Part shown: positions 1 to 61,867 of the stretch, piece after piece | Numbering within the stretch: the first letter of the stretch is position 1 | Layout: each line of letters begins with the position of its first letter | DNA from: a phage | Assembly: GCA_019234695.1 (NCBI GenBank) | Contig: GCA_019234695.1_3937.1 | Length of the DNA stretch: 64,000 nt | Reading direction: 5' to 3' (one strand) | Position numbers and translations under genes: made by a program | The notes under the pieces: generated by a model | Database searches by the model: none | What the model was told of the DNA's origin: nothing | Seen by the model: only the letters and a program-made list of their open reading frames with translations

Positions 1-113
1 AAAAAAAGCTTCTACAATCCAAACAAACAGATGCTTGAAAGTAACTTTGCAGTATCTACAAGTATCGTCCATGACAGAAGCTTTATCCTTTACAAAAATA
101 TGAGAGGTGAGTC

Positions 114-290
114 ATGCAAGCATATTGGGTAGAAATTTTACTGTCACTTGGTAGTGTAGCAGTCTTTGTTTATCTTCTTTGTAAGTACTTTGCAGAACAC
201 AAGAAGTGTGACTACTGTAACGGAGAAGGGTATACAAGAGCAGGTTGTTGCCCTATGTGTGGTGGTTCTGGTAAAATGTTTAATAAGTAA
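114..290 (+). CDS. small membrane-anchored Cys4 zinc-ribbon protein (58 aa, below ORF-track cutoff)
   Basis: ATG at 114 after GAGAGGTGAG RBS; reads without stop to TAA at 288-290; hydrophobic N-terminus then CDYC...CPMC. Confidence 0.35.
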   Translation: MQAYWVEILLSLGSVAVFVYLLCKYFAEHKKCDYCNGEGYTRAGCCPMCGGSGKMFNK

Positions 291-318
291 TTTAACAGTA
301 AACTAAGAGGAAAGTATT

Positions 319-2685
319 ATGCGCATGGTAAATGACCACGCAGAAGTGATTAAGAGTTCAACTTCTTTAGAGACGTCTCAAGCACAGATTACAATGACAC
401 CTGAGATGTTCAGCCTTTTGAGTTCTGGTGTGTATACCTTTAAAGAAAGGGCAGTGATTCGTGAACTGTCATGTAACGCAGTAGATGCTCAGAAAGAAGC
501 TGGAAAAGAGAACATCCCGTTCCATGTGCATTTACCTACTCGTTTTGAGCCTTACTTTGAAGTTCGTGATTTTGGAACTGGATTGACTCATGATAAAGTT
601 ATGAGTTTGTACCTAAACTACGGGGCTTCTACGAAGAATGACTCTAATGACTACATTGGTGCAATGGGTATCGGCTCAAAATCACCATTTGCAATTGCTC
701 AGTCATTCACAGTGTCTAGCTATGTTGATGGTGTTGTTAATAAGTACTCTGTTTATCTTGAGAATGGTATCCCTCAAGTAACTAAGCTGACCACTAACCC
801 AACAAAAGAACCTAATGGTTTAGCTGTACGTGTGGCAGTTGCTGACCACCGTATCTCAAAGTTCTTTGAAGAAGCTGGAAATGTGTACTCATACTTCACT
901 GTAAAACCAGAAAGTAATATTGAGTACGACGATGTATTAGCAGACATGAACGTCATTGCCCGTGAAGAAGGTGTTTACGATGCCATGATTCATAAGCAAA
1001 GCTGGCGTTCTAGTGGTAACAGGACAGAGTTTAATGTGGTGATGGGTAATATTGCCTATCCAGTGAACATGGAAGCATTACTTGGTGATGATTTCTTCAA
1101 AGTCTTGCCAGAGTTTTTCCGTAGGAGCGTAGACCTTGTAAACATCTACATGCCTATTGGTTCAGTTGCTATAGCAGCTTCTCGTGAAGCATTGCAGATG
1201 AATGATACGACAAAAAATGTTATCATTGAGGCTACTAAAAAGATAACTGAAGCCATTACAAAGGATGTTATCAAGAAAGTTAATAGCCAACCTACACTCA
1301 TGGATGCTGCACAGGCTTATGCTGAGTTACGTTTGAACTCACGAGAGATGTTTAATGCTGTGTGTCCAAAGCTAGAGTGGGGAGGCGTTAAGCTTGATTC
1401 TCTGGAAGAAGAATTGCTAAACATTCGTCGTGGGATTATCTACGCAGAAGACGGCTCAGTCATTTATGAACGTGACGGTAAAGGCAATATTAAGGTTGAT
1501 AGGAACGGGAACAATATCCCTAAAGTAGATTATCTTTATAACCCAGTTGCTTATGTCAAGTTCAACTCTTTAGAGAGTAAGATTCGTGCAACAGCACTTT
1601 CCTACACTCAAGAGGCAAGTATGTTCAATATCTTTGGTGCAATGCGTAAAAGCCAAATTGAACAGTTTTTGTTCGTGATTAATGACCGTCGCAATAAAAA
1701 CGGCACTGAGAAGACTGTAGGACGAAACCAAATCTTGCGTGGTGCATGTCGAGACTACGCTAACGAATCAAGCCTGTTCCACAGATACAATGGTATTGTG
1801 TTTGTATTCTCGACTGAAAAAGAGTTAGATGATTTAATCAATCTACACAAACTTGATAAAAGCTTGTTAAAGATTGTGAAGATGTCTGATAAGGAACACC
1901 ACTATCAGCGTAAAGAAGCTGTAAGGGGTGTTGTAAAACTCTGGAAAGCTGTTCCAGCAGAAACTAAAGCTTCATACAAAGAGGTGTCAGAAGACTTAGA
2001 CACAATTGAAGAGCCTCAGCTTTATATTAAGGCAGTAGGTGACACAGTTGATGGTAGATGTTTTTGCTCATCTCCAGAGGATGTAGCTAAGTCAGTTGCT
2101 AATGTTACAGGCAAGACAGTCTATGTTTTCCGAAAAGCAAATTGGAAAAAGATACCAGAAGACTGGATTGAAGTAGATGAGAAGCTCTTGAACGACAGCT
2201 TAACTGATGTTCATTGGATTAACCATAACAGGTATATGACACGCATCTACATGGATGGTGTCCTCGACCTTACAAGCAGTTGGATTATTGCCAGAAACTT
2301 TACGTTCAATAACAGGAAGATTTCTCGCGGGTATTGTTATTCAAGGGATACTATTAAGACAATCTTCTTAGAAGGGAATGAAGATGCTGTTGAGGCAATG
2401 TTCGGTAAGATTCAGTATGTGGCTGCACCGTTTGCATACACTTACACTATCAGTGTTCTTCAGGATTTGAAGTCATGCCTTGATAATGACACAAAACTGT
2501 ACAAAAAGATTAAAAAAGCAGGTGACCGCATGGTTATCAAGCTGACAAACTATCTTTCAAAAAGAAAACAAGAAAACTTCTTGCTTTCACACTTAGATTG
2601 GAATAAAGTATCACCTATCGAAGTGAGTAAGTTTTTAGGCTTTAATGTGAAATGTGTTCCAGAAGGTACAACAATTTACGATTAA
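319..2685 (+). CDS. rIIA: rIIA protein (GHKL/HATPase-like N-terminus)
   Basis: 788 aa; N-terminal motifs AVIRELSCNAVDA, FEVRDFGTGL, GAMGIGSKSPF colinear with T4 rIIA; RBS AGAGGA. Confidence 0.85.
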   Translation: MRMVNDHAEVIKSSTSLETSQAQITMTPEMFSLLSSGVYTFKERAVIRELSCNAVDAQKEAGKENIPFHVHLPTRFEPYFEVRDFGTGLTHDKVMSLYLNYGASTKNDSNDYIGAMGIGSKSPFAIAQSFTVSSYVDGVVNKYSVYLENGIPQVTKLTTNPTKEPNGLAVRVAVADHRISKFFEEAGNVYSYFTVKPESNIEYDDVLADMNVIAREEGVYDAMIHKQSWRSSGNRTEFNVVMGNIAYPVNMEALLGDDFFKVLPEFFRRSVDLVNIYMPIGSVAIAASREALQMNDTTKNVIIEATKKITEAITKDVIKKVNSQPTLMDAAQAYAELRLNSREMFNAVCPKLEWGGVKLDSLEEELLNIRRGIIYAEDGSVIYERDGKGNIKVDRNGNNIPKVDYLYNPVAYVKFNSLESKIRATALSYTQEASMFNIFGAMRKSQIEQFLFVINDRRNKNGTEKTVGRNQILRGACRDYANESSLFHRYNGIVFVFSTEKELDDLINLHKLDKSLLKIVKMSDKEHHYQRKEAVRGVVKLWKAVPAETKASYKEVSEDLDTIEEPQLYIKAVGDTVDGRCFCSSPEDVAKSVANVTGKTVYVFRKANWKKIPEDWIEVDEKLLNDSLTDVHWINHNRYMTRIYMDGVLDLTSSWIIARNFTFNNRKISRGYCYSRDTIKTIFLEGNEDAVEAMFGKIQYVAAPFAYTYTISVLQDLKSCLDNDTKLYKKIKKAGDRMVIKLTNYLSKRKQENFLLSHLDWNKVSPIEVSKFLGFNVKCVPEGTTIYD

Positions 2686-2690
2686 AGTGT

Positions 2691-2719
2691 TTGACAAGGG
2701 GCTTTGAAGCCCCTTAGAA
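2691..2719 (+). promoter_or_regulatory. sigma70-like promoter with stem-loop in spacer
   Basis: TTGACA-17-TAGAAT; spacer is hairpin AAGGGGC-TTTGAA-GCCCCTT; upstream of rIIB. Confidence 0.4.
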
Positions 2720-2764
2720 TATCCTCACAAAATGATTTATTAACTAACAAGAGAGAGTAATAAG

Positions 2765-3874
2765 ATGACTACTAAAACTAAAGCACAGATTGACGCAGAA
2801 ATTTACAAACTGGTTAAAGAAGGTAAGCTGACTAAAACAGCTATTGCACAGAAATTTAATACTTCAACCCGTTCAGTCGGTCGTGCTGTAGAGCGTCATG
2901 AAGCAACCTTAAAAGGGAATAAGAAGGCAACTTCTACACCAGCTACGAAGTCTTTGAAACAAGTTGCTAAGACTTTTAAAAAGAAAGCTGGCAAACCAGT
3001 TGAAAAGGTTGTTAAAGATGCTGTACAGAAAGCTCCAGTAAATAAACTGCATGAAGCTATGCAGAAAGATGACAAGATTGAGTACATGATTACTGGTGAC
3101 TCTGTAATTATGACTTACGGTTCAGAGTCTGAAATTGTTGAGTCTACTCATCCGAACTATCAAGAGATTGTAGTTCATGTTGTGAAAGGTGAGTTTAAGA
3201 AAGCCTTTGAACTGATGAACATTCGTAAGTCTATCGAAAACTTCACTCAGGGTGCTATCACAATCAAAGGTGACAAACTATTCTACGGTGCTGTTGAGAT
3301 GCGTTCTACTCTGGTTGACCGTATTCTTCACATGATGAAGACTGGAGATAAAGGTTTTGAACGCCTTGTAATGTTCTTTGAAAAACTGATGGAAAACCCA
3401 TCTAAAGACTCTGTAGAACAACTTTGGGGCTTCGTATCTCACCTTGATGTTGAAATTGATGAAGAAGGCTACATCATTGGTTGGAAGAAAGTCTCTACTC
3501 GTGAAGGTAAGCTGGTTGACTCCCACACCTACAAAGTTCCTAACGATTTGGGTAACATTGTAGAGATGCCACGTTGGATGGTTGATAATAACCGTAACGT
3601 GACTTGCTCTCAAGGTCTTCATGTTGGTGCTTGGGATTATGTTCGTTGTTTCTCAGGTGATACAATTCTGAAGGTTCGTGTCCATCCACGAGATGTTGTA
3701 TCTGTTCCAACTGATTACAACGATATGAAGATGCGCTCATCTCGTTATGAAGTTGCAGCAATCGTTGATAATCAACGTAAAGTGTTGAAAGCATGGGATG
3801 GCAAGACTGAAGCTTTACATGTCATCGTTGGTACTGCTGGTGAACTCATCTCTCAGCGTAAACGTGAAATCTAA
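2765..3874 (+). CDS. rIIB: rIIB protein
   Basis: 369 aa; C-terminal half colinear with T4 rIIB (LFYGAVEMRSTLVDRIL, GLHVGAWDY, DVVSVP); directly downstream of rIIA. Confidence 0.85.
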   Translation: MTTKTKAQIDAEIYKLVKEGKLTKTAIAQKFNTSTRSVGRAVERHEATLKGNKKATSTPATKSLKQVAKTFKKKAGKPVEKVVKDAVQKAPVNKLHEAMQKDDKIEYMITGDSVIMTYGSESEIVESTHPNYQEIVVHVVKGEFKKAFELMNIRKSIENFTQGAITIKGDKLFYGAVEMRSTLVDRILHMMKTGDKGFERLVMFFEKLMENPSKDSVEQLWGFVSHLDVEIDEEGYIIGWKKVSTREGKLVDSHTYKVPNDLGNIVEMPRWMVDNNRNVTCSQGLHVGAWDYVRCFSGDTILKVRVHPRDVVSVPTDYNDMKMRSSRYEVAAIVDNQRKVLKAWDGKTEALHVIVGTAGELISQRKREI

Positions 3875-3887
3875 TAAGTAATTTCTT

Positions 3888-3914
3888 AAAAGGCTGCTTC
3901 GGCGGCCTTTTTTA
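3888..3914 (+). terminator. intrinsic terminator after rIIB
   Basis: AGGCTGC-TTCG-GCGGCCT followed by TTTTTT. Confidence 0.65.
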
Positions 3915-3974: not shown

Positions 3975-4523
3975 ATGAAGAAATTGATTCTAGGTTTGTG
4001 CTTAATGTTTACAGCACACTTATCTTATGCAGTTGACTGCCCAGAGCTATCAATTAGCCAAAAAGTAAACATGTTAAAAGCTTACCAGTATGGTGAGAAT
4101 AACATGGGTAAAGGTTGGGGTATCACTCTAGCTGCTATAGCCTTACAAGAGTCAGAGTTAGGTCTGAAGGTAGAGAATAAAAAGACACATGATTATGGTA
4201 TTTTCCAGAATCACTTGAAGACTGTTGTAAAGCGTAACAACATTAGTCCTAATGTGGCTAAAAAGAAACTCTTAAAAGACTTTGACTATGCTGCAAAGGA
4301 AACGCACAAAGAACTTGAGTTTTGGACAAAGGTGCATGGTCAGCCAAAGTCAAAGAAGACTTTACAAAAAGTTTTAGCATCATATAATGCTGGGTATTCG
4401 TACAGAATCCCTAAAGCTAAGAAATACTCTCAAGATGTCTATAACAATATGAAAGTTATCGCTCAATGTGAATTTGCAACAAACATTTCTAAGGTAAACC
4501 ATGAAAAAATTAAGAAAGTCTGA
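3975..4523 (+). CDS. secreted lytic transglycosylase-like protein (SLT domain)
   Basis: N-terminal signal peptide MKKLILGLCLMFTAHLSYA; SLT-type motifs ALQESELG, YGIFQ, SYNAG. Confidence 0.55.
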   Translation: MKKLILGLCLMFTAHLSYAVDCPELSISQKVNMLKAYQYGENNMGKGWGITLAAIALQESELGLKVENKKTHDYGIFQNHLKTVVKRNNISPNVAKKKLLKDFDYAAKETHKELEFWTKVHGQPKSKKTLQKVLASYNAGYSYRIPKAKKYSQDVYNNMKVIAQCEFATNISKVNHEKIKKV

Positions 4524-55847: not shown

Positions 55848-56393
55848 TCAAAAGTGTCCTTTTACTTGTGGAACATAAATTTCAAAAGTTGCTTTACCAT
55901 CCTCTGATGGTTTTGACTGTACCTTTGTAAACACACGGTTATCATACAGCTTCTCAAAGAAGTTTTCAAAAGGTAAATGCACAGTGGCCTCTTCAGTAAC
56001 TTTATGGAAAACAGTATGGAACACCACACTAGCATATGGTAAAGCATTGACAAGGATACCTGCACCACCAATTACAAAGACATCTTCATCAATAGAGCTA
56101 TCAAGATACTTCAAAAATGCTCCAAATGACTCTTTACTGGCTTTAGCATACATTACATCATCTTTGCCAAAGTCTATGCCTAAGTATGGTACAGAATTTG
56201 TTAAGATGAGGTTTGCACGTTCTGGTAAAGGTTTACTACCCAGAGTCTTAAAAGTCTCATTACCCATGACTACTAAGTTATTTTTAGTGAGTCTCTTAAA
56301 CTCTTGCATGTCCTGTTTATGTCGAGGCCACGGCATACCAGTCGGTGTACCAAATTCACCGTTTTCACCACTTGCAAATATTAGCTTAATCAT
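55848..56393 (-). CDS. frd: dihydrofolate reductase
   Basis: MIKLIFASGENGEFG...MPW...LVVMGNETF DHFR N-terminal signature; 2-nt spacing to thyA. Confidence 0.8.
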   Translation of the reverse strand: MIKLIFASGENGEFGTPTGMPWPRHKQDMQEFKRLTKNNLVVMGNETFKTLGSKPLPERANLILTNSVPYLGIDFGKDDVMYAKASKESFGAFLKYLDSSIDEDVFVIGGAGILVNALPYASVVFHTVFHKVTEEATVHLPFENFFEKLYDNRVFTKVQSKPSEDGKATFEIYVPQVKGHF

Positions 56394-56650
56394 TTTGTAA
56401 ACCCTTTCTTAATGAACCAGTTGATAACATTCTTCACAGCTTTATTGCTGTGGTAGATTAAGTGTGGTGTAGGTTGGTATGAACCATAGGCCCAGAATGA
56501 TAGATGCTCACCACAACCAACACATGTAGTACTTTCTTCAGCTATATGGCCATTAACAATCACATGAACTTCACCTTGTAAGTCTGTACACCCACAATGT
56601 GGACATCGGATAGGTGTTCCGTCAGGCTCATAGCAGTGTTCAATTTTCAT
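56390..56650 (-). CDS. small zinc-ribbon protein
   Basis: CPHCGC ... CVGCGEH. Confidence 0.45.
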   Translation of the reverse strand: MKIEHCYEPDGTPIRCPHCGCTDLQGEVHVIVNGHIAEESTTCVGCGEHLSFWAYGSYQPTPHLIYHSNKAVKNVINWFIKKGFTK

Positions 56651-57166
56651 TTATTTAACCTCAAAAACTGGTTCAAGAACCAATATAAAGTCTACACAGT
56701 CATCTTCTTCATCCAGAATACCATCAAAGTTCTTAGGAACGAAGTCGAAGAGGCTCATCACAAAACAGTCAGAAGTAACCCTGATAGTTCCTCCAATGTT
56801 CTCTACAGTCAATACTGTACGACTTTCTTTCACCTCCCGAAGAAGATTACTCACAAAGTCATCTAAGAAGTACTTCATCAGCGACTTGAAACCTTTAGGG
56901 TAATCTGTACCAGAGTATGTTTCAATCTGAGGGACAAGCTTAACATTTATGCTAGTCTTTGTTAAGAATGCACTAGAGAACATACTGTCAGGTAGTTTAC
57001 AAACAATCTTTCCAGTACCTTCATGTTCAATCTCAACAAAACCAGCTTCATCGCCACATGTAACTATTTTAAAAGACGCTTCATTCTCACCCTGTGAAGC
57101 CATAAACTTTTTAAGCATCACTTTAAGGAAGTCTGCATGAGCATCTTGTAAGTAGATATCAATCAT
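56651..57166 (-). CDS. hypothetical protein
   Basis: ORF track. Confidence 0.5.
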   Translation of the reverse strand: MIDIYLQDAHADFLKVMLKKFMASQGENEASFKIVTCGDEAGFVEIEHEGTGKIVCKLPDSMFSSAFLTKTSINVKLVPQIETYSGTDYPKGFKSLMKYFLDDFVSNLLREVKESRTVLTVENIGGTIRVTSDCFVMSLFDFVPKNFDGILDEEDDCVDFILVLEPVFEVK

Positions 57167-57179
57167 AGTTAATCACCTA

Positions 57180-57539
57180 TTAAGGGAACAAACACTTAAT
57201 GTCATCGTTTTTGAAAACGAAACTTGTATAGTTGTGACCGTCAACATCCAGCCAAACAGCCTGAACATCTACACCATCAAGATTGTGGTAAAGTTCTTTG
57301 ATGAAGTGGTCTTTCACAATCTGGCTGCTAGTTGTTTCCAGCTTAATATTTGAGATTGCTGAACCTACAGCCATATAACCCATGACACGTTTCTTCTCAG
57401 TATGCTTAATCTTACCATCTTTGTAAGCCATAATGAGATTGGAAAGAATTTTTACACCGTAGTACTTTTCAAGGTGAGTAGGTGCACCATAAAAGCCTAA
57501 TGCGAAGTTTTCAGAGTGGATAATGTTTTCACGTTTCAT
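57180..57539 (-). CDS. hypothetical protein
   Basis: ORF track. Confidence 0.5.
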   Translation of the reverse strand: MKRENIIHSENFALGFYGAPTHLEKYYGVKILSNLIMAYKDGKIKHTEKKRVMGYMAVGSAISNIKLETTSSQIVKDHFIKELYHNLDGVDVQAVWLDVDGHNYTSFVFKNDDIKCLFP

Positions 57540-60573: not shown

Positions 60574-61674
60574 TTATTCATAATCCCTAATAACTAGCCC
60601 GACAGGGAACTGTAAAGAACCCTTACGAGTCATCTTCTGGAACTGTACCGTTAAAGGCTTCCCGATAAACTCTTCAGGATGCTCAGCAAGATACTGTTTC
60701 TTCTCGTGTGTAGTTTTCCATGAAACATCTACAAAGACGTTAGGAAGAGTCTCTACAACGAACTTACCATGACCACGTTTATCAGTCTTTACACCAGTCA
60801 CTTTAAACTCTTCAGTGTGCATCTTCTTGTGCTTAATCAAGAAGTATGAACGGTGACCGCACTCATAGAATGAGTTTTCAGAGATTGAACGGTACATTGC
60901 ACCTTCAAACTTAGCTTCAACCCACTTATCATGAGCTTCATCAAACTCTTCCCAAGAGTTAACACGGCGAGACTTGACAGGAACAACTTTACAGCCATCT
61001 CTAAAGTCATTCAATGGTGAAGTCTCAATAATATCTCTACGCTCAGGCCACGTCTTAGTACTGTCACAGATATCGTACCAGTAGAACTGGAGTAGATGTC
61101 GGTCTGGATTGTCAGCATTCTTAATCATAGACACAATATCTTCTAAGTCCCAACCGTGAGCATAAATCTCACCATCAAAGTCTTCGACTTGTGGGTGCAA
61201 TTTAAGCAACAAAAGCAAATCTGGGATTAGTTCTGCTGGGACGTTGTAAACAGTATTCTCACGAGAGTAAGCCGTGAAACTAACTGAGTCATTATTTCTT
61301 GAAATTCTACAACGGACACCATCAAGTTTTGGTTGAGCATCAGCAGGAAATATCAAATACTTTGCATGACTAACCTTTGCAGCATCATGAGCAAGCTGTA
61401 CACCTACCTTCTCAGTATTCTGTGCAGACTCTTTCGTGTAAGCATAACCTTTACGGTCAACTTGCTTTTTATACTTAGCAGCAACTTCAAAGAGAGCTTG
61501 CTGTTCAGCATTACGTTCATTCTTTTTACCGATGTTTTTAGGTTCTGCTGTATACTCTTCAAACATCATCTTGCCATTTTCTTTACCATAGGTTGTAATA
61601 ACTTTGTTACCTATAGCACCGCATGACCAGATGTTGAAGGAACCGTCTTTATTTTGTTTGTACAGTGTTGTCAT
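60574..61674 (-). CDS. ATP-dependent DNA ligase
   Basis: KxDGxR adenylation motif PKLDGVRC; start moved to ATG (MTTLYKQ) after AGAGGA RBS. Confidence 0.7.
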   Translation of the reverse strand: MTTLYKQNKDGSFNIWSCGAIGNKVITTYGKENGKMMFEEYTAEPKNIGKKNERNAEQQALFEVAAKYKKQVDRKGYAYTKESAQNTEKVGVQLAHDAAKVSHAKYLIFPADAQPKLDGVRCRISRNNDSVSFTAYSRENTVYNVPAELIPDLLLLLKLHPQVEDFDGEIYAHGWDLEDIVSMIKNADNPDRHLLQFYWYDICDSTKTWPERRDIIETSPLNDFRDGCKVVPVKSRRVNSWEEFDEAHDKWVEAKFEGAMYRSISENSFYECGHRSYFLIKHKKMHTEEFKVTGVKTDKRGHGKFVVETLPNVFVDVSWKTTHEKKQYLAEHPEEFIGKPLTVQFQKMTRKGSLQFPVGLVIRDYE

Positions 61675-61675
61675 T

Positions 61676-61867
61676 TTATTCCTCTGAGTGATACCAAGTA
61701 TTGCAAGCATTACATGCGTAAAGTTCTAAGTCATTTTTATCTGGTTTATGGAAACAGTTTGCTCCGCAGTGGCAACGAAACGGCTTTCCACCAACTGTCA
61801 GGATGAAGGATTGAACCTTTCCATCTGGAGTTCGTATAGCATTTTTATACTTATCTTCTTTGTTCAT
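61676..61867 (-). CDS. small zinc-ribbon protein
   Basis: CHCGANC ... CNACNTW. Confidence 0.4.
   Translation of the reverse strand: MNKEDKYKNAIRTPDGKVQSFILTVGGKPFRCHCGANCFHKPDKNDLELYACNACNTWYHSEE

What the first reader, a model, noticed from the sequence alone, without database searches (positions are those of the whole stretch)
114..290. Unlisted 58-aa membrane-anchored zinc-ribbon ORF upstream of rIIA
A clean ORF with good RBS (GAGAGGTGAG) encodes a hydrophobic N-terminus followed by CDYC and CPMC pairs. It falls below the 60-aa ORF-track threshold and would be missed by default annotation; two further small zinc-ribbon ORFs occur elsewhere (56390..56650, 61676..61867).
Basis: seen in the sequence. 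Interest (0 to 1): 0.2.

Follow-up and report, generated by a model that had tools for sequence, protein, structure and literature searches.

The report
Known small membrane-anchored zinc-hairpin phage gene
The 58-codon reading frame just upstream of rIIA is a real, strongly conserved gene of Felix O1-like phages that encodes a membrane anchor plus one DnaJ-type zinc hairpin, but it has been annotated since 2010 (Felix O1 gp131), its function is still unknown, and it is dispensable in the one knock-down screen that covered it.

Summary
Window 114..290 (+) is a 58-aa ORF with an RBS at 102-111, a hydrophobic N-terminus and two Cys pairs.

The window is a Felixounavirus, and the ORF is the orthologue of Felix O1 gp131/Felix01p243 (PHROG 3931). 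It is a real gene:
- The frame is intact in 33 relatives from three genera.
- pN/pS is 0.09-0.11, and 29 of 43 variable sites are at codon position 3.
- The four zinc-ligand cysteines are invariant.

The Cys pairs are two CxxCxGxG motifs, which make one DnaJ cysteine-rich-type zinc hairpin. The family profile hits E. coli DnaJ CR (E 7e-10), and the model superposes on Anti-TRAP at 1.1 Å. Charge bias (0 versus 52 Lys/Arg) predicts N-out/C-in, so the hairpin should be cytoplasmic.

The gene sits in one terminator-bounded unit with rIIA and rIIB, in four Ounavirinae genera. RB49-like phages carry a relative next to nrdH instead.

It is not "unlisted". It was annotated in 2010 as a 1-TMD membrane protein and holin candidate, and in 2015 as "DnaJ-like, cysteine-rich". 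The SUSP1 orthologue scored "Not Fit" in a genome-wide knock-down screen.

Most likely it is an accessory, membrane-tethered protein-binding module. It is not a J-protein or a holin. Ordinary finding; low interest.

The parts
102..111 (+). Shine-Dalgarno region GAGAGGTGAG (GAGG core 104-107, 6-nt spacer), lying inside the coding 3' end of the upstream ORF
   Evidence: Sequence read directly. Identical or nearly so in relatives.
114..290 (+). CDS of the 58-aa protein, orthologue of Felix O1 gp131 / Felix01p243 (PHROG 3931)
129..188 (+). Codons 6-25: the single hydrophobic transmembrane helix
   Evidence: Kyte-Doolittle maximum at residue 6. AF2 model has a helix at residues 3-27. Felix O1 paper lists '1 TMD'.
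207..230 (+). First CxxCxGxG motif (C32-D-Y-C35-N-G37-E-G39)
249..272 (+). Second CxxCxGxG motif (C46-P-M-C49-G-G51-S-G53), preceded by the family-typical extra Cys45
1..132 (+). 3' end of the upstream 111-114-aa ORF (phrog_4262, unknown function). It overlaps the start of the 58-aa ORF by 19 nt (114-132), and this overlap is conserved in Felixounavirus, Mooglevirus and Suspvirus.
319..2685 (+). rIIA homologue (788 aa), 28 nt downstream, with no intervening terminator
2765..3874 (+). rIIB homologue (369 aa)
3888..3911 (+). Terminator-like hairpin that closes the unit containing the 58-aa ORF, rIIA and rIIB

Best explanation
This is a genuine accessory gene of Felix O1-like phages that has already been catalogued. 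It encodes a bitopic inner-membrane protein with three parts: a 5-7-residue N-tail with no basic residues, one transmembrane helix (about residues 6-25), and a ~30-residue C-terminal domain. In that domain two CxxCxGxG motifs (C32, C35, C46, C49) hold one zinc ion in a DnaJ-cysteine-rich-type, Anti-TRAP-like hairpin.

Shown:
- It is coding and under strong purifying selection.
- The motif and fold class.
- Conserved placement directly upstream of rIIA-rIIB in one terminator-bounded unit, with a 19-nt overlap with the preceding ORF in three of the four genera.
- The orthologue is dispensable in a laboratory knock-down screen.

Inferred:
- Topology is N-out/C-in, so the hairpin sits on the cytoplasmic face of the membrane.
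- It is made in the middle period together with its neighbours.
- It works as a membrane-tethered protein-binding module (a binder, inhibitor or holdase for a host or phage protein at the membrane). This is how J-domain-less DnaJ-type zinc hairpins such as Anti-TRAP and plant FIP work.
- Its benefit is conditional (host- or defence-dependent), not part of core replication or lysis.

It is not a J-domain co-chaperone, so the label "heat shock protein" over-reaches, and it is probably not the holin.
For: Real gene:
- Intact frame in 33 loci from 3 genera, 31 distinct DNA sequences. pN/pS is 0.109 (Felix-type) and 0.26 (Moogle/Susp-type). Variable sites by codon position are 7/7/29 and 14/3/31.
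- In the same genomes pN/pS is 0.092, against 0.236 for rIIA. The hairpin half (0.064) is more constrained than the anchor half (0.159).

Family:
- PHROG 3931, E 1.7e-33.
- Only about 5 full-length clusters among 1.84e9 representative proteins.
- A fourth genus (phiEa21-4 gp117) has it at the same locus.
- RB49p046 matches the same PHROG at E 4.4e-10.

Zinc hairpin:
- C32, C35, C46, C49, G37, G39, G51 and G53 are invariant in a 14-sequence alignment.
- The family profile hits PDB 1exk (E. coli DnaJ CR domain) at E 7e-10, DNAJA3 at 3e-5 and Anti-TRAP at 7.7e-4.
- The AF2 model (pLDDT 76) has a helix at 3-27 plus a hairpin. It superposes on Anti-TRAP 3ld0/3lcz/2bx9 with rmsd 1.1 Å over 28 columns, 36% identity, probability 0.99.

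Topology: 12 diverse members have 0 Lys/Arg on the N side and 52 on the C side of the helix.

Operon: no + strand terminator between the ORF and 3888-3911. In relatives another terminator follows nadV upstream. Felix O1 RT-PCR shows ORFs 130 and 1 peaking at 25 min and ORF 2 at 10 min.

Accessory role:
- SUSP1 orthologue AVU07_agp080 had 7 guides, score 1.05, p 0.11, classed "Not Fit".
- Three independent 1-nt deletions exist in deposited genomes or assemblies.

Mode of action by analogy:
- Anti-TRAP is a 53-aa zinc-dependent protein inhibitor with the same two motifs.
- FIP is a membrane anchor plus two CXXCXGXG motifs, has no J domain, has its finger on the stromal side, and binds FtsH5.
Against: - There is no direct evidence of translation, zinc binding, membrane insertion or any binding partner. 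Felix O1 gp131 itself was "not tested" by RT-PCR and was not among the virion proteins found by mass spectrometry.
- Matches to the DnaJ, Anti-TRAP and DUF5351 family models are all below the curated thresholds. Fold-search E-values are weak because the domain is tiny.
- Net charge after the helix is about zero in Moogle/Susp-type members, so the topology rests on Lys/Arg counts alone.
- The conserved extra Cys45 and the nrdH neighbourhood in RB49-like phages would also fit a thiol-redox role.
- The mechanism rests on analogy, not on data for this protein.
Confidence: 0.55

Rival explanations
1. It is the missing holin, or an antiholin or lysis-timing factor, of Felix O1-like phages. On this reading the small single-pass membrane protein with a charged C-terminus permeabilises the inner membrane, or regulates that step, so that the lysin can reach the wall.
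For: - The Felix O1 genome paper names gp131 among five holin candidates, on the basis of size, a TMD and a charged C-terminus.
- No holin is identified next to the lysin in UAB_Phi87 or Meda.
- The gene lies in the same unit as rIIA/rIIB ("lysis inhibition" genes) and about 3.7 kb upstream of an SLT-like lysin and the spanins.
Against: - The SUSP1 orthologue is "Not Fit" in a screen where T4 t scored Semi-Fit and the T5 holin scored Fit.
- The neighbouring genes peak at 25 min, not in the late (60 min) class.
- The predicted topology is N-out/C-in with a folded cytoplasmic zinc domain. That is the opposite of the class III holin topology (N-in/C-out) described for phage Mushroom, whose annotators labelled this gene DnaJ-like instead.
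- In RB49-like phages the relative sits in a nucleotide-metabolism cluster.
- Genomes with frameshifted copies were propagated and sequenced.
Confidence: 0.07
2. It is a dedicated partner of RIIA/RIIB. On this reading it acts as a membrane anchor or assembly chaperone that places the RII proteins at the inner membrane so that they can counter Rex-type abortive-infection systems.
For: - It lies directly upstream of rIIA in the same terminator-bounded unit in four Ounavirinae genera: Felixounavirus, Mooglevirus, Suspvirus and Kolesnikvirus.
- J-less DnaJ-type zinc fingers act as binding or assembly factors in plants.
- SUSP1 rII knock-down matters only when lambda RexAB is present, so a partner would also look "Not Fit" without Rex.
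Against: - About 2,100 other rIIA-encoding phage records lack the small gene.
- T4 rIIA.1, which occupies the equivalent position, is unrelated.
- In RB49-like phages the relative lies beside nrdH, far from rIIA.
- Synteny within one subfamily reflects a single inherited arrangement, not independent co-occurrence.
Confidence: 0.15
3. The CxxC pairs are redox-active rather than structural zinc ligands. On this reading it is a membrane-bound thiol-disulfide protein, either facing the periplasm (N-in/C-out) or acting as a cytoplasmic redox switch, possibly working with a phage glutaredoxin.
For: - There are two CxxC motifs plus a conserved fifth Cys45.
- In the RB49 clade the gene always overlaps the 3' end of nrdH/glutaredoxin.
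- DnaJ has oxidoreductase activity (abstract of PMC8262869). From memory, several plant DnaJ-like zinc-finger membrane proteins do too.
Against: - The Lys/Arg distribution (0 on the N side, 52 on the C side) argues against a periplasmic C-terminus.
- The invariant GxG after each CxxC is the signature of the zinc knuckle, and the domain models onto zinc-bound Anti-TRAP.
- Cys45 is Pro in P0028.
- The ORF upstream in Ounavirinae is not a redoxin, and the small ORF that follows the Felix-type glutaredoxin is not a paralogue.
Confidence: 0.1
4. It is a chance open reading frame, or only the tail of a regulatory region, and makes no functional product.
For: It is short (58 codons), and some genome records omit it. 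Four database entries carry frameshifted versions.
Against: - There is strong frame-specific purifying selection, and the frame is intact across four genera down to 47% identity, with invariant Cys and Gly residues.
- The RBS is conserved.
- The frameshifted copies keep otherwise intact downstream codons. One comes from an assembly in which neighbouring genes are also truncated.
Confidence: 0.01

Closest known systems
Felix O1 gp131 / Felix01p243 (NP_945023.1; ORF315 of AF320576), PHROG 3931
   Same: It is the orthologue: 96.6% identical, 58 aa, and in the same position as the last gene before rIIA. It is described as "CHP, membrane protein (1 TMD)". The PHROG match is full-length at E 1.7e-33.
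   Different: Nothing material. The window's copy differs by a few conservative substitutions.
Anti-TRAP (RtpA) of Bacillus (PDB 2bx9, 3lcz, 3ld0)
   Same: It is of similar size (~53 aa) and has two CxxCxGxG motifs binding one zinc. It is the best structural match (rmsd 1.1 Å over 28 columns, 36% identity). It acts purely by binding another protein.
   Different: Anti-TRAP is soluble and trimerises through its non-hairpin parts, whereas the phage protein has an N-terminal transmembrane helix. Family-model scores are far below threshold (9.3 vs 32 bits in Pfam, 11 vs 65 in NCBIfam). From general knowledge, the enterobacterial hosts have no TRAP.
Cysteine-rich domain of DnaJ/Hsp40 (PF00684; PDB 1exk)
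   Same: It has the same CxxCxGxG zinc-knuckle motif. The family profile hits 1exk at E 7e-10 and aligns to each half of the domain. One RefSeq record already notes "DnaJ-like, contains cysteine-rich domain".
   Different: DnaJ has four repeats (two zinc centres), a J domain, a G/F region and C-terminal substrate-binding domains. The phage protein has two repeats and nothing else except a membrane anchor. It scores 16.8 bits against a threshold of 32.7.
Arabidopsis FIP (FtsH5-interacting protein) and other J-less DnaJ-like zinc-finger membrane proteins of plastids
   Same: The mature architecture is the same: a hydrophobic anchor followed by a small C-terminal domain with two CXXCXGXG repeats and no J domain. 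The mature protein is about 9 kDa, and the finger is on the stromal side, which is equivalent to the cytoplasm.
   Different: FIP is a eukaryotic, plastid-targeted protein with a transit peptide. Sequence homology was not tested here. Its FtsH binding is known only for the plant protein.
RB49p046 / JSE EpJSE_00047 (Krischvirus) and phiEa21-4 gp117
   Same: All are 52-54 aa with a TM helix plus C-x2-C-x-G-x-G ... C-C/V-C-x2-C-x-G-x-G, about 40% identical to the window protein. The relationship was already noted by the Felix O1 and phiEa21-4 annotators.
   Different: In RB49-like phages the gene overlaps the end of nrdH in a nucleotide-metabolism cluster instead of preceding rIIA.

Membership tests
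PHROG 3931 (Felix01p243-like small phage proteins, unknown function) | Full-length match to the family HMM | tested here: met
   E 1.7e-33, residues 1-58 against profile positions 1-59 of 59. The SUSP1 orthologue is assigned to the same PHROG by Adler et al..
DnaJ / type I Hsp40 | J domain (HPD motif) that stimulates Hsp70 | tested here: not met
   The protein is 58 aa. The Pfam scan gives no J-domain hit, and residues 1-27 are a hydrophobic helix.
DnaJ / type I Hsp40 | Four CxxCxGxG repeats forming two zinc centres, scoring above the PF00684 gathering threshold | tested here: not met
   Only two repeats. 16.8 bits against a cut-off of 32.7. The NCBIfam DnaJ models give 17 bits against 377.
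Anti-TRAP (RtpA; PF15777 / NF058604) | Two CxxCxGxG motifs binding one zinc in a ~50-aa protein, with a matching hairpin fold | tested here: met
   Motifs at residues 32-39 and 46-53. Foldseek top hits are 3ld0/3lcz/2bx9, rmsd 1.1 Å, probability 0.96-0.99. Actual zinc binding was not measured.
Anti-TRAP (RtpA; PF15777 / NF058604) | Family-model score above the curated cut-off; a soluble trimer-forming protein | tested here: not met
   9.3 vs 32 bits (Pfam) and 11 vs 65 bits (NCBIfam). It has a transmembrane helix where Anti-TRAP has its soluble N- and C-terminal segments.
Anti-TRAP (RtpA; PF15777 / NF058604) | Binds TRAP and blocks its RNA-binding surface | not testable with these tools
   This needs biochemistry. 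From general knowledge, the enterobacterial hosts lack TRAP.
Holins | Small membrane protein with at least one TMD and a charged, hydrophilic C-terminus | tested here: met
   One hydrophobic helix, and a C-terminal part with 6 Lys/Arg and 3 Asp/Glu. Listed as a holin candidate on these criteria in PMC3185647.
Holins | Needed for lysis and plaque formation; late expression | tested here: inconclusive
In published data the SUSP1 orthologue is "Not Fit", while the T4 and T5 holins scored. Flanking genes peak at 25 min, not 60 min, and gp131 itself was not tested. The authors acknowledge that the screen has false negatives.
Holins | Class III topology (one TMD, N-in/C-out) | tested here: not met
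   The Lys/Arg bias of 0 (N side) against 52 (C side) over 12 members predicts N-out/C-in. This is a prediction only.
J-less DnaJ-like zinc-finger membrane proteins (FIP type) | Membrane anchor followed by a C-terminal domain with two CXXCXGXG repeats and no J domain | tested here: met
   Architecture, compared with the description of FIP in PMC5915565. This is a resemblance of architecture; common descent was not tested.
J-less DnaJ-like zinc-finger membrane proteins (FIP type) | Binds the FtsH protease | not testable with these tools
   This needs pull-down, two-hybrid or complex modelling with host FtsH.
DUF5351 (PF17302) | Score above the gathering threshold | tested here: not met
   18.6 bits against a cut-off of 27.

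The most novel reading that the evidence does not exclude
The protein is a phage-made, membrane-tethered counterpart of Anti-TRAP or plant FIP. Its cytoplasmic zinc hairpin would capture or inhibit a specific host inner-membrane factor, for example FtsH or the membrane component of an abortive-infection system. It would act alongside RIIA/RIIB and so be needed only on hosts that carry that factor. That would make it a new type of small anti-host or counter-defence protein, and could give a handle on the long-unresolved mechanism of rII.
Probability: 0.12. Interest if true: 0.55.

Novelty: already known. Interest (0 to 1): 0.15.

Why it matters
As it stands this mostly matters for annotation quality. 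A 60-aa ORF cut-off hides a gene that is conserved and well constrained, public records label it inconsistently ("hypothetical", "membrane protein", "heat shock protein", or nothing), and databases hold frameshifted versions as separate proteins. A more accurate label would be [quoted passage not shown].

Biologically it would become interesting only if a partner were found. Small J-less zinc hairpins are common in phages and none has been characterised. This one sits immediately upstream of rIIA/rIIB, whose mechanism is still unclear.

Tried and rejected
- Word-indexed protein search with the single sequence found only close relatives and frameshifted variants. The exhaustive HMMER search and a profile search then showed that the family really is narrow.
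- The first related-loci run failed, because the alignment included the frameshifted proteins. It was repeated with a clean alignment.
- Idea: a conserved "redoxin + CxxC membrane protein" gene pair. This came from the nrdH overlap in the RB49 clade. I rejected it because the Ounavirinae upstream ORF has no CxxC, shows no similarity to NrdH, and belongs to a PHROG of unknown function. Also, the 68-aa ORF that follows the Felix-type glutaredoxin has no cysteines.
- Idea: T4 rIIA.1 is the equivalent gene. I rejected it because that protein has no hydrophobic segment, no Cys and no resemblance.
- Idea: the frameshifted 63-aa products reflect programmed frameshifting or an alternative product. I rejected it because they are single-base deletions at three different sites (a fourth variant was seen only as protein) and the +1 frame shows no coding constraint (pN/pS 1.67).
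- Expression data: no Felixounavirus transcriptome or ribosome-profiling paper was found. The Felix O1 RT-PCR did not test gp131. Nothing was found on RB49p046.
- The AFDB fold library was not available. No model file was listed among the script machine's data files, so Cys-Cys geometry was not measured.
- Rfam gave no RNA family in 1..3000.

Full report
**What is there.** Window 114..290 (+) is an ATG-initiated ORF of 58 codons: MQAYWVEILLSLGSVAVFVYLLCKYFAEHKKCDYCNGEGYTRAGCCPMCGGSGKMFNK. GAGAGGTGAG lies at 102-111, with its GAGG core 6 nt before the ATG. The start codon sits 19 nt inside the 3' end of the preceding ORF, whose stop is at 130-132. rIIA (319..2685) and rIIB (2765..3874) follow. 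They belong to unrelated PHROGs (2993 and 5768) and have no hydrophobic segment or GxG motif.

**Origin and prior annotation.** The first 4 kb are 98% identical to E. coli O157 typing phages 1 and 15, and 95-97% identical to many other Felixounavirus genomes. The ORF is annotated in several places:
- RefSeq NC_041979 as FDI04_gp080, "hypothetical protein".
- KhF3 as "putative membrane protein", similar to Felix O1 NP_945023.1.
- The original Felix O1 record as ORF315.
- It is missing from ESCO49, although the frame there is intact.

The Felix O1 genome paper lists it as gp131: "CHP, membrane protein (1 TMD)", 58 aa, pI 8.0, 39% identical to a protein of the RB49-like phage JSE. RT-PCR on it was "not tested", and the paper names it among five holin candidates (PMC3185647). 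The RefSeq record of phage Mushroom labels it [quoted passage not shown]. It is the full-length type of PHROG 3931, function unknown (E 1.7e-33). So "unlisted" holds only with respect to a 60-aa ORF track.

**Is it a real gene?** Yes.
- In 33 relatives' loci from Felixounavirus, Mooglevirus and Suspvirus (35 copies with the window's, 31 distinct DNA sequences) the frame is always intact.
- Within Felix-type genomes pN/pS is 0.109, with variable sites at codon positions 1/2/3 of 7/7/29. In Moogle/Susp-type genomes pN/pS is 0.26, with 14/3/31.
- Four of the five other frames of the same DNA give 0.9-2.9. The exception (0.13) is the antisense frame that shares wobble positions with the ORF, and it is open for only 41 codons (112..237) in the window.
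- In 17 genomes the ORF (0.092) is at least as constrained as the upstream ORF (0.103) and rIIA (0.236). Its Cys-rich half (0.064) is tighter than its anchor half (0.159).

**The frameshifted database entries.** Four 63-aa "relatives" in the protein databases turned out to be frameshift products. DNA was examined for three of them. Single-base deletions at three different sites (phiWec177 and its sisters, a Logan contig, and MG969406) shift into the open +1 frame. The downstream zinc-finger codons are otherwise intact, and MG969406 also has truncated neighbouring genes. These are recent losses or sequencing errors. They are not evidence against coding.

**What the protein is.**
- Residues ~6-25 are strongly hydrophobic: the best 17-mer has mean Kyte-Doolittle 2.0-2.8 across the family. 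The AlphaFold model (14-sequence alignment, pLDDT 76) has a helix at 3-27.
- The two Cys pairs are each part of a CxxCxGxG motif. That DNA pattern occurs only twice in the 64-kb window, both times here (0.12 expected).
- In a 14-sequence alignment spanning both clades, C32, C35, C46, C49, G37, G39, G51 and G53 are invariant. A fifth Cys (C45) is nearly invariant but is Pro in one member.
- The family profile finds the cysteine-rich domain of E. coli DnaJ (1exk, E 7e-10), DNAJA3 (3e-5) and Anti-TRAP (7.7e-4) among solved structures.
- The model's C-terminal domain superposes best on Anti-TRAP (3ld0/3lcz/2bx9): rmsd 1.1 Å over 28 columns, 36% identity, probability 0.96-0.99. DnaJ structures come next.
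- Scores against the curated DnaJ_CXXCXGXG, Anti-TRAP, DUF5351 and NCBIfam DnaJ/RtpA models are all below threshold.

So the protein shares the zinc-knuckle module but belongs to none of those families. It has no J domain and only two of DnaJ's four repeats, so "heat shock protein" over-reaches.

**Topology (inferred).** In 12 diverse members there are no Lys/Arg residues N-terminal to the helix and 52 C-terminal to it, 2-6 per protein. By the positive-inside rule this predicts N-out/C-in, which puts the hairpin on the cytoplasmic face, where a Zn(Cys)4 site is expected to be stable. Net charge after the helix is near zero in Moogle/Susp-type proteins, so this remains a prediction.

**Distribution and context.**
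- An exhaustive HMMER scan of 1.84 billion representative proteins finds only about five full-length clusters. The other hits are longer proteins with several CxxCxGxG hairpins.
- In every Ounavirinae member examined, the order is prs - nadV - (hyp) - 111-aa ORF - this gene - rIIA - rIIB - SLT-like lysin. This includes divergent metagenomic ones at 47-51% identity. The 19-nt overlap is conserved in three genera.
- Erwinia phage phiEa21-4 (Kolesnikvirus) has a 54-aa version (gp117) as the last gene before rIIA, without the overlap.
- The unit is bounded by terminator-like hairpins after nadV (in relatives) and after rIIB (window 3888-3911). No + strand terminator lies between the ORF and rIIA.
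- Felix O1 RT-PCR puts ORFs 130 and 1 (rIIA) at maximal expression at 25 min and ORF 2 (rIIB) at 10 min.
- A second clade, the RB49/JSE-like Krischvirus phages, has a 52-55-aa relative (PHROG 3931, E 4.4e-10). It always overlaps the end of nrdH/glutaredoxin and lies far from rIIA.
- rIIA homologues occur in about 2,360 phage records, but only the ~258 Ounavirinae-type ones have this neighbour. T4 rIIA.1, in the equivalent place, is unrelated.

**Functional data from the literature.** In the CRISPRi-ART genome-wide knock-down of phiSUSP1, the orthologue AVU07_agp080 (57142-57321; PHROG 3931; "Felix01p243") was targeted by seven guides. It scored 1.05 (p 0.11) and was classed "Not Fit". rIIA next door was "Semi-Fit" and rIIB "Not Fit". 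The same method scored the T4 holin t as Semi-Fit and the T5 holin as Fit (PMC11879866). Knock-down of SUSP1 rIIA/rIIB reduced plating only when lambda RexAB was present. The gene is therefore dispensable for infection of a laboratory strain, with the caveat that the authors acknowledge false negatives.

**How it most likely works.**
- Shown: it is a conserved, constrained, non-essential small gene that encodes an anchor plus one DnaJ-type zinc hairpin, located in the rII unit.
- Inferred: it is a membrane-tethered protein-binding module acting at the cytoplasmic face.

The two best-understood J-less proteins with this module work that way. Anti-TRAP is a 53-aa zinc-dependent inhibitor that binds TRAP (PMC2896485). 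Arabidopsis FIP has an anchor plus two CXXCXGXG repeats, has its finger on the stromal side, and binds the membrane protease FtsH5 (PMC5915565). The partner here is unknown. Candidates are RIIA/RIIB (from the neighbourhood), host FtsH or DnaK (by analogy), or a defence component. I put about 0.55 on the overall description. Within that, gene status is near-certain, the fold class is about 0.8, and the binding-module mechanism is about 0.35.

**Rivals.**
- Holin or lysis factor (0.07). It fits the crude criteria, and no holin is known in the group. Against it are the screen result, the middle-period timing of the neighbours, the predicted topology, and the RB49-clade context.
- Dedicated RII partner (0.15). 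It is supported only by synteny within one subfamily. Against it are the roughly 2,100 rIIA-encoding phage records that lack the gene and the RB49 arrangement.
- Redox-active CxxC protein (0.10). This is suggested by Cys45 and the nrdH neighbourhood. Against it are the Lys/Arg bias, the invariant GxG knuckle signature, and the absence of a redoxin neighbour in Ounavirinae.
- Chance ORF (0.01). This is excluded by the selection pattern.

**Verdict.** The finding is a correct observation of an ordinary gene that has already been catalogued and whose function is unknown. New here are a sharper description (Anti-TRAP-like single zinc hairpin, predicted N-out/C-in), quantified selection, the family's limits, and the link to published knock-down data. 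Small DnaJ-type zinc-hairpin proteins are common among phages and none has been characterised. A partner for this one would be moderately interesting, mainly because of its position in front of rIIA/rIIB.

Noticed in passing
window 166..306 (+); L047 (phiWec177), L048, L049 (MG969406.1): Protein databases hold 63-aa "relatives" (P0003, P0005, P0006, P0007) that are frameshift products. Single-base deletions at different sites in the small ORF run into the +1 frame, which happens to be open to 306. phiWec172/174/177 appear to share one deletion, since their matches are 3,999 rather than 4,000 bases long. MG969406 also has truncated nadV and rIIA calls, which suggests an error-prone assembly.
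   Followed up: yes
window 56390..56650 (-): 86-aa ORF with CPHC...CVGC pairs (phrog_2993, unknown function; weak sub-threshold Lar restriction-alleviation hit, E 0.067). It overlaps the start of the 181-aa ORF 55848..56393 by 4 nt. It is not related to the 58-aa protein.
   Followed up: partly
window 61676..61867 (-): 63-aa Cys/His-rich ORF (phrog_5768, unknown function, no Pfam hit). Its 3' end overlaps the start of the 378-aa ORF 60574..61710 by 35 nt. It is not related to the 58-aa protein.
   Followed up: partly
L006 3995..4153 (RB49); L041, L044-L046: In RB49-like T-even phages the relative of this gene always overlaps the 3' end of nrdH/glutaredoxin (8-11 nt) and precedes a DUF7570 gene. 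This is a different, equally fixed neighbourhood from the rIIA one in Ounavirinae.
   Followed up: partly
window about 3975..4523 (+) (L001 6975..7523): The 182-aa ORF after rIIB is labelled "putative lysin" in some records. It gives only a weak, sub-threshold SLT transglycosylase hit (E 9e-4, 19.2 vs 21.3 bits). It is distinct from the Felix O1 lysin gp35 described in the genome paper, and it scored "Not Fit" in the SUSP1 screen.
   Followed up: partly
window 2691..2720 (+) and 3888..3911 (+): There is a near-consensus sigma-70-like site (TTGACA-18-TAGAAT, 11/12) in the rIIA-rIIB intergenic region, and a strong terminator-like hairpin right after rIIB. The promoter-like site might explain why Felix O1 rIIB peaked earlier (10 min) than rIIA (25 min) by RT-PCR.
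   Followed up: no
L050 (AF320576.1 83000..86155): The original Felix O1 GenBank record carries duplicate and antisense ORF calls (for example ORF312 and ORF314 opposite nadV and ORF313) that later annotations dropped. Automated comparisons against this record can pick up spurious proteins.
   Followed up: no
BFVD hits; P0016, P0018, P0020, P0027: Many other small phage and metagenomic proteins (46-130 aa) consist of one or two DnaJ-type CxxCxGxG hairpins, some with an N-terminal hydrophobic segment (P0018, P0020). All are uncharacterised. The module seems to be a recurrent building block of small phage proteins.
   Followed up: no
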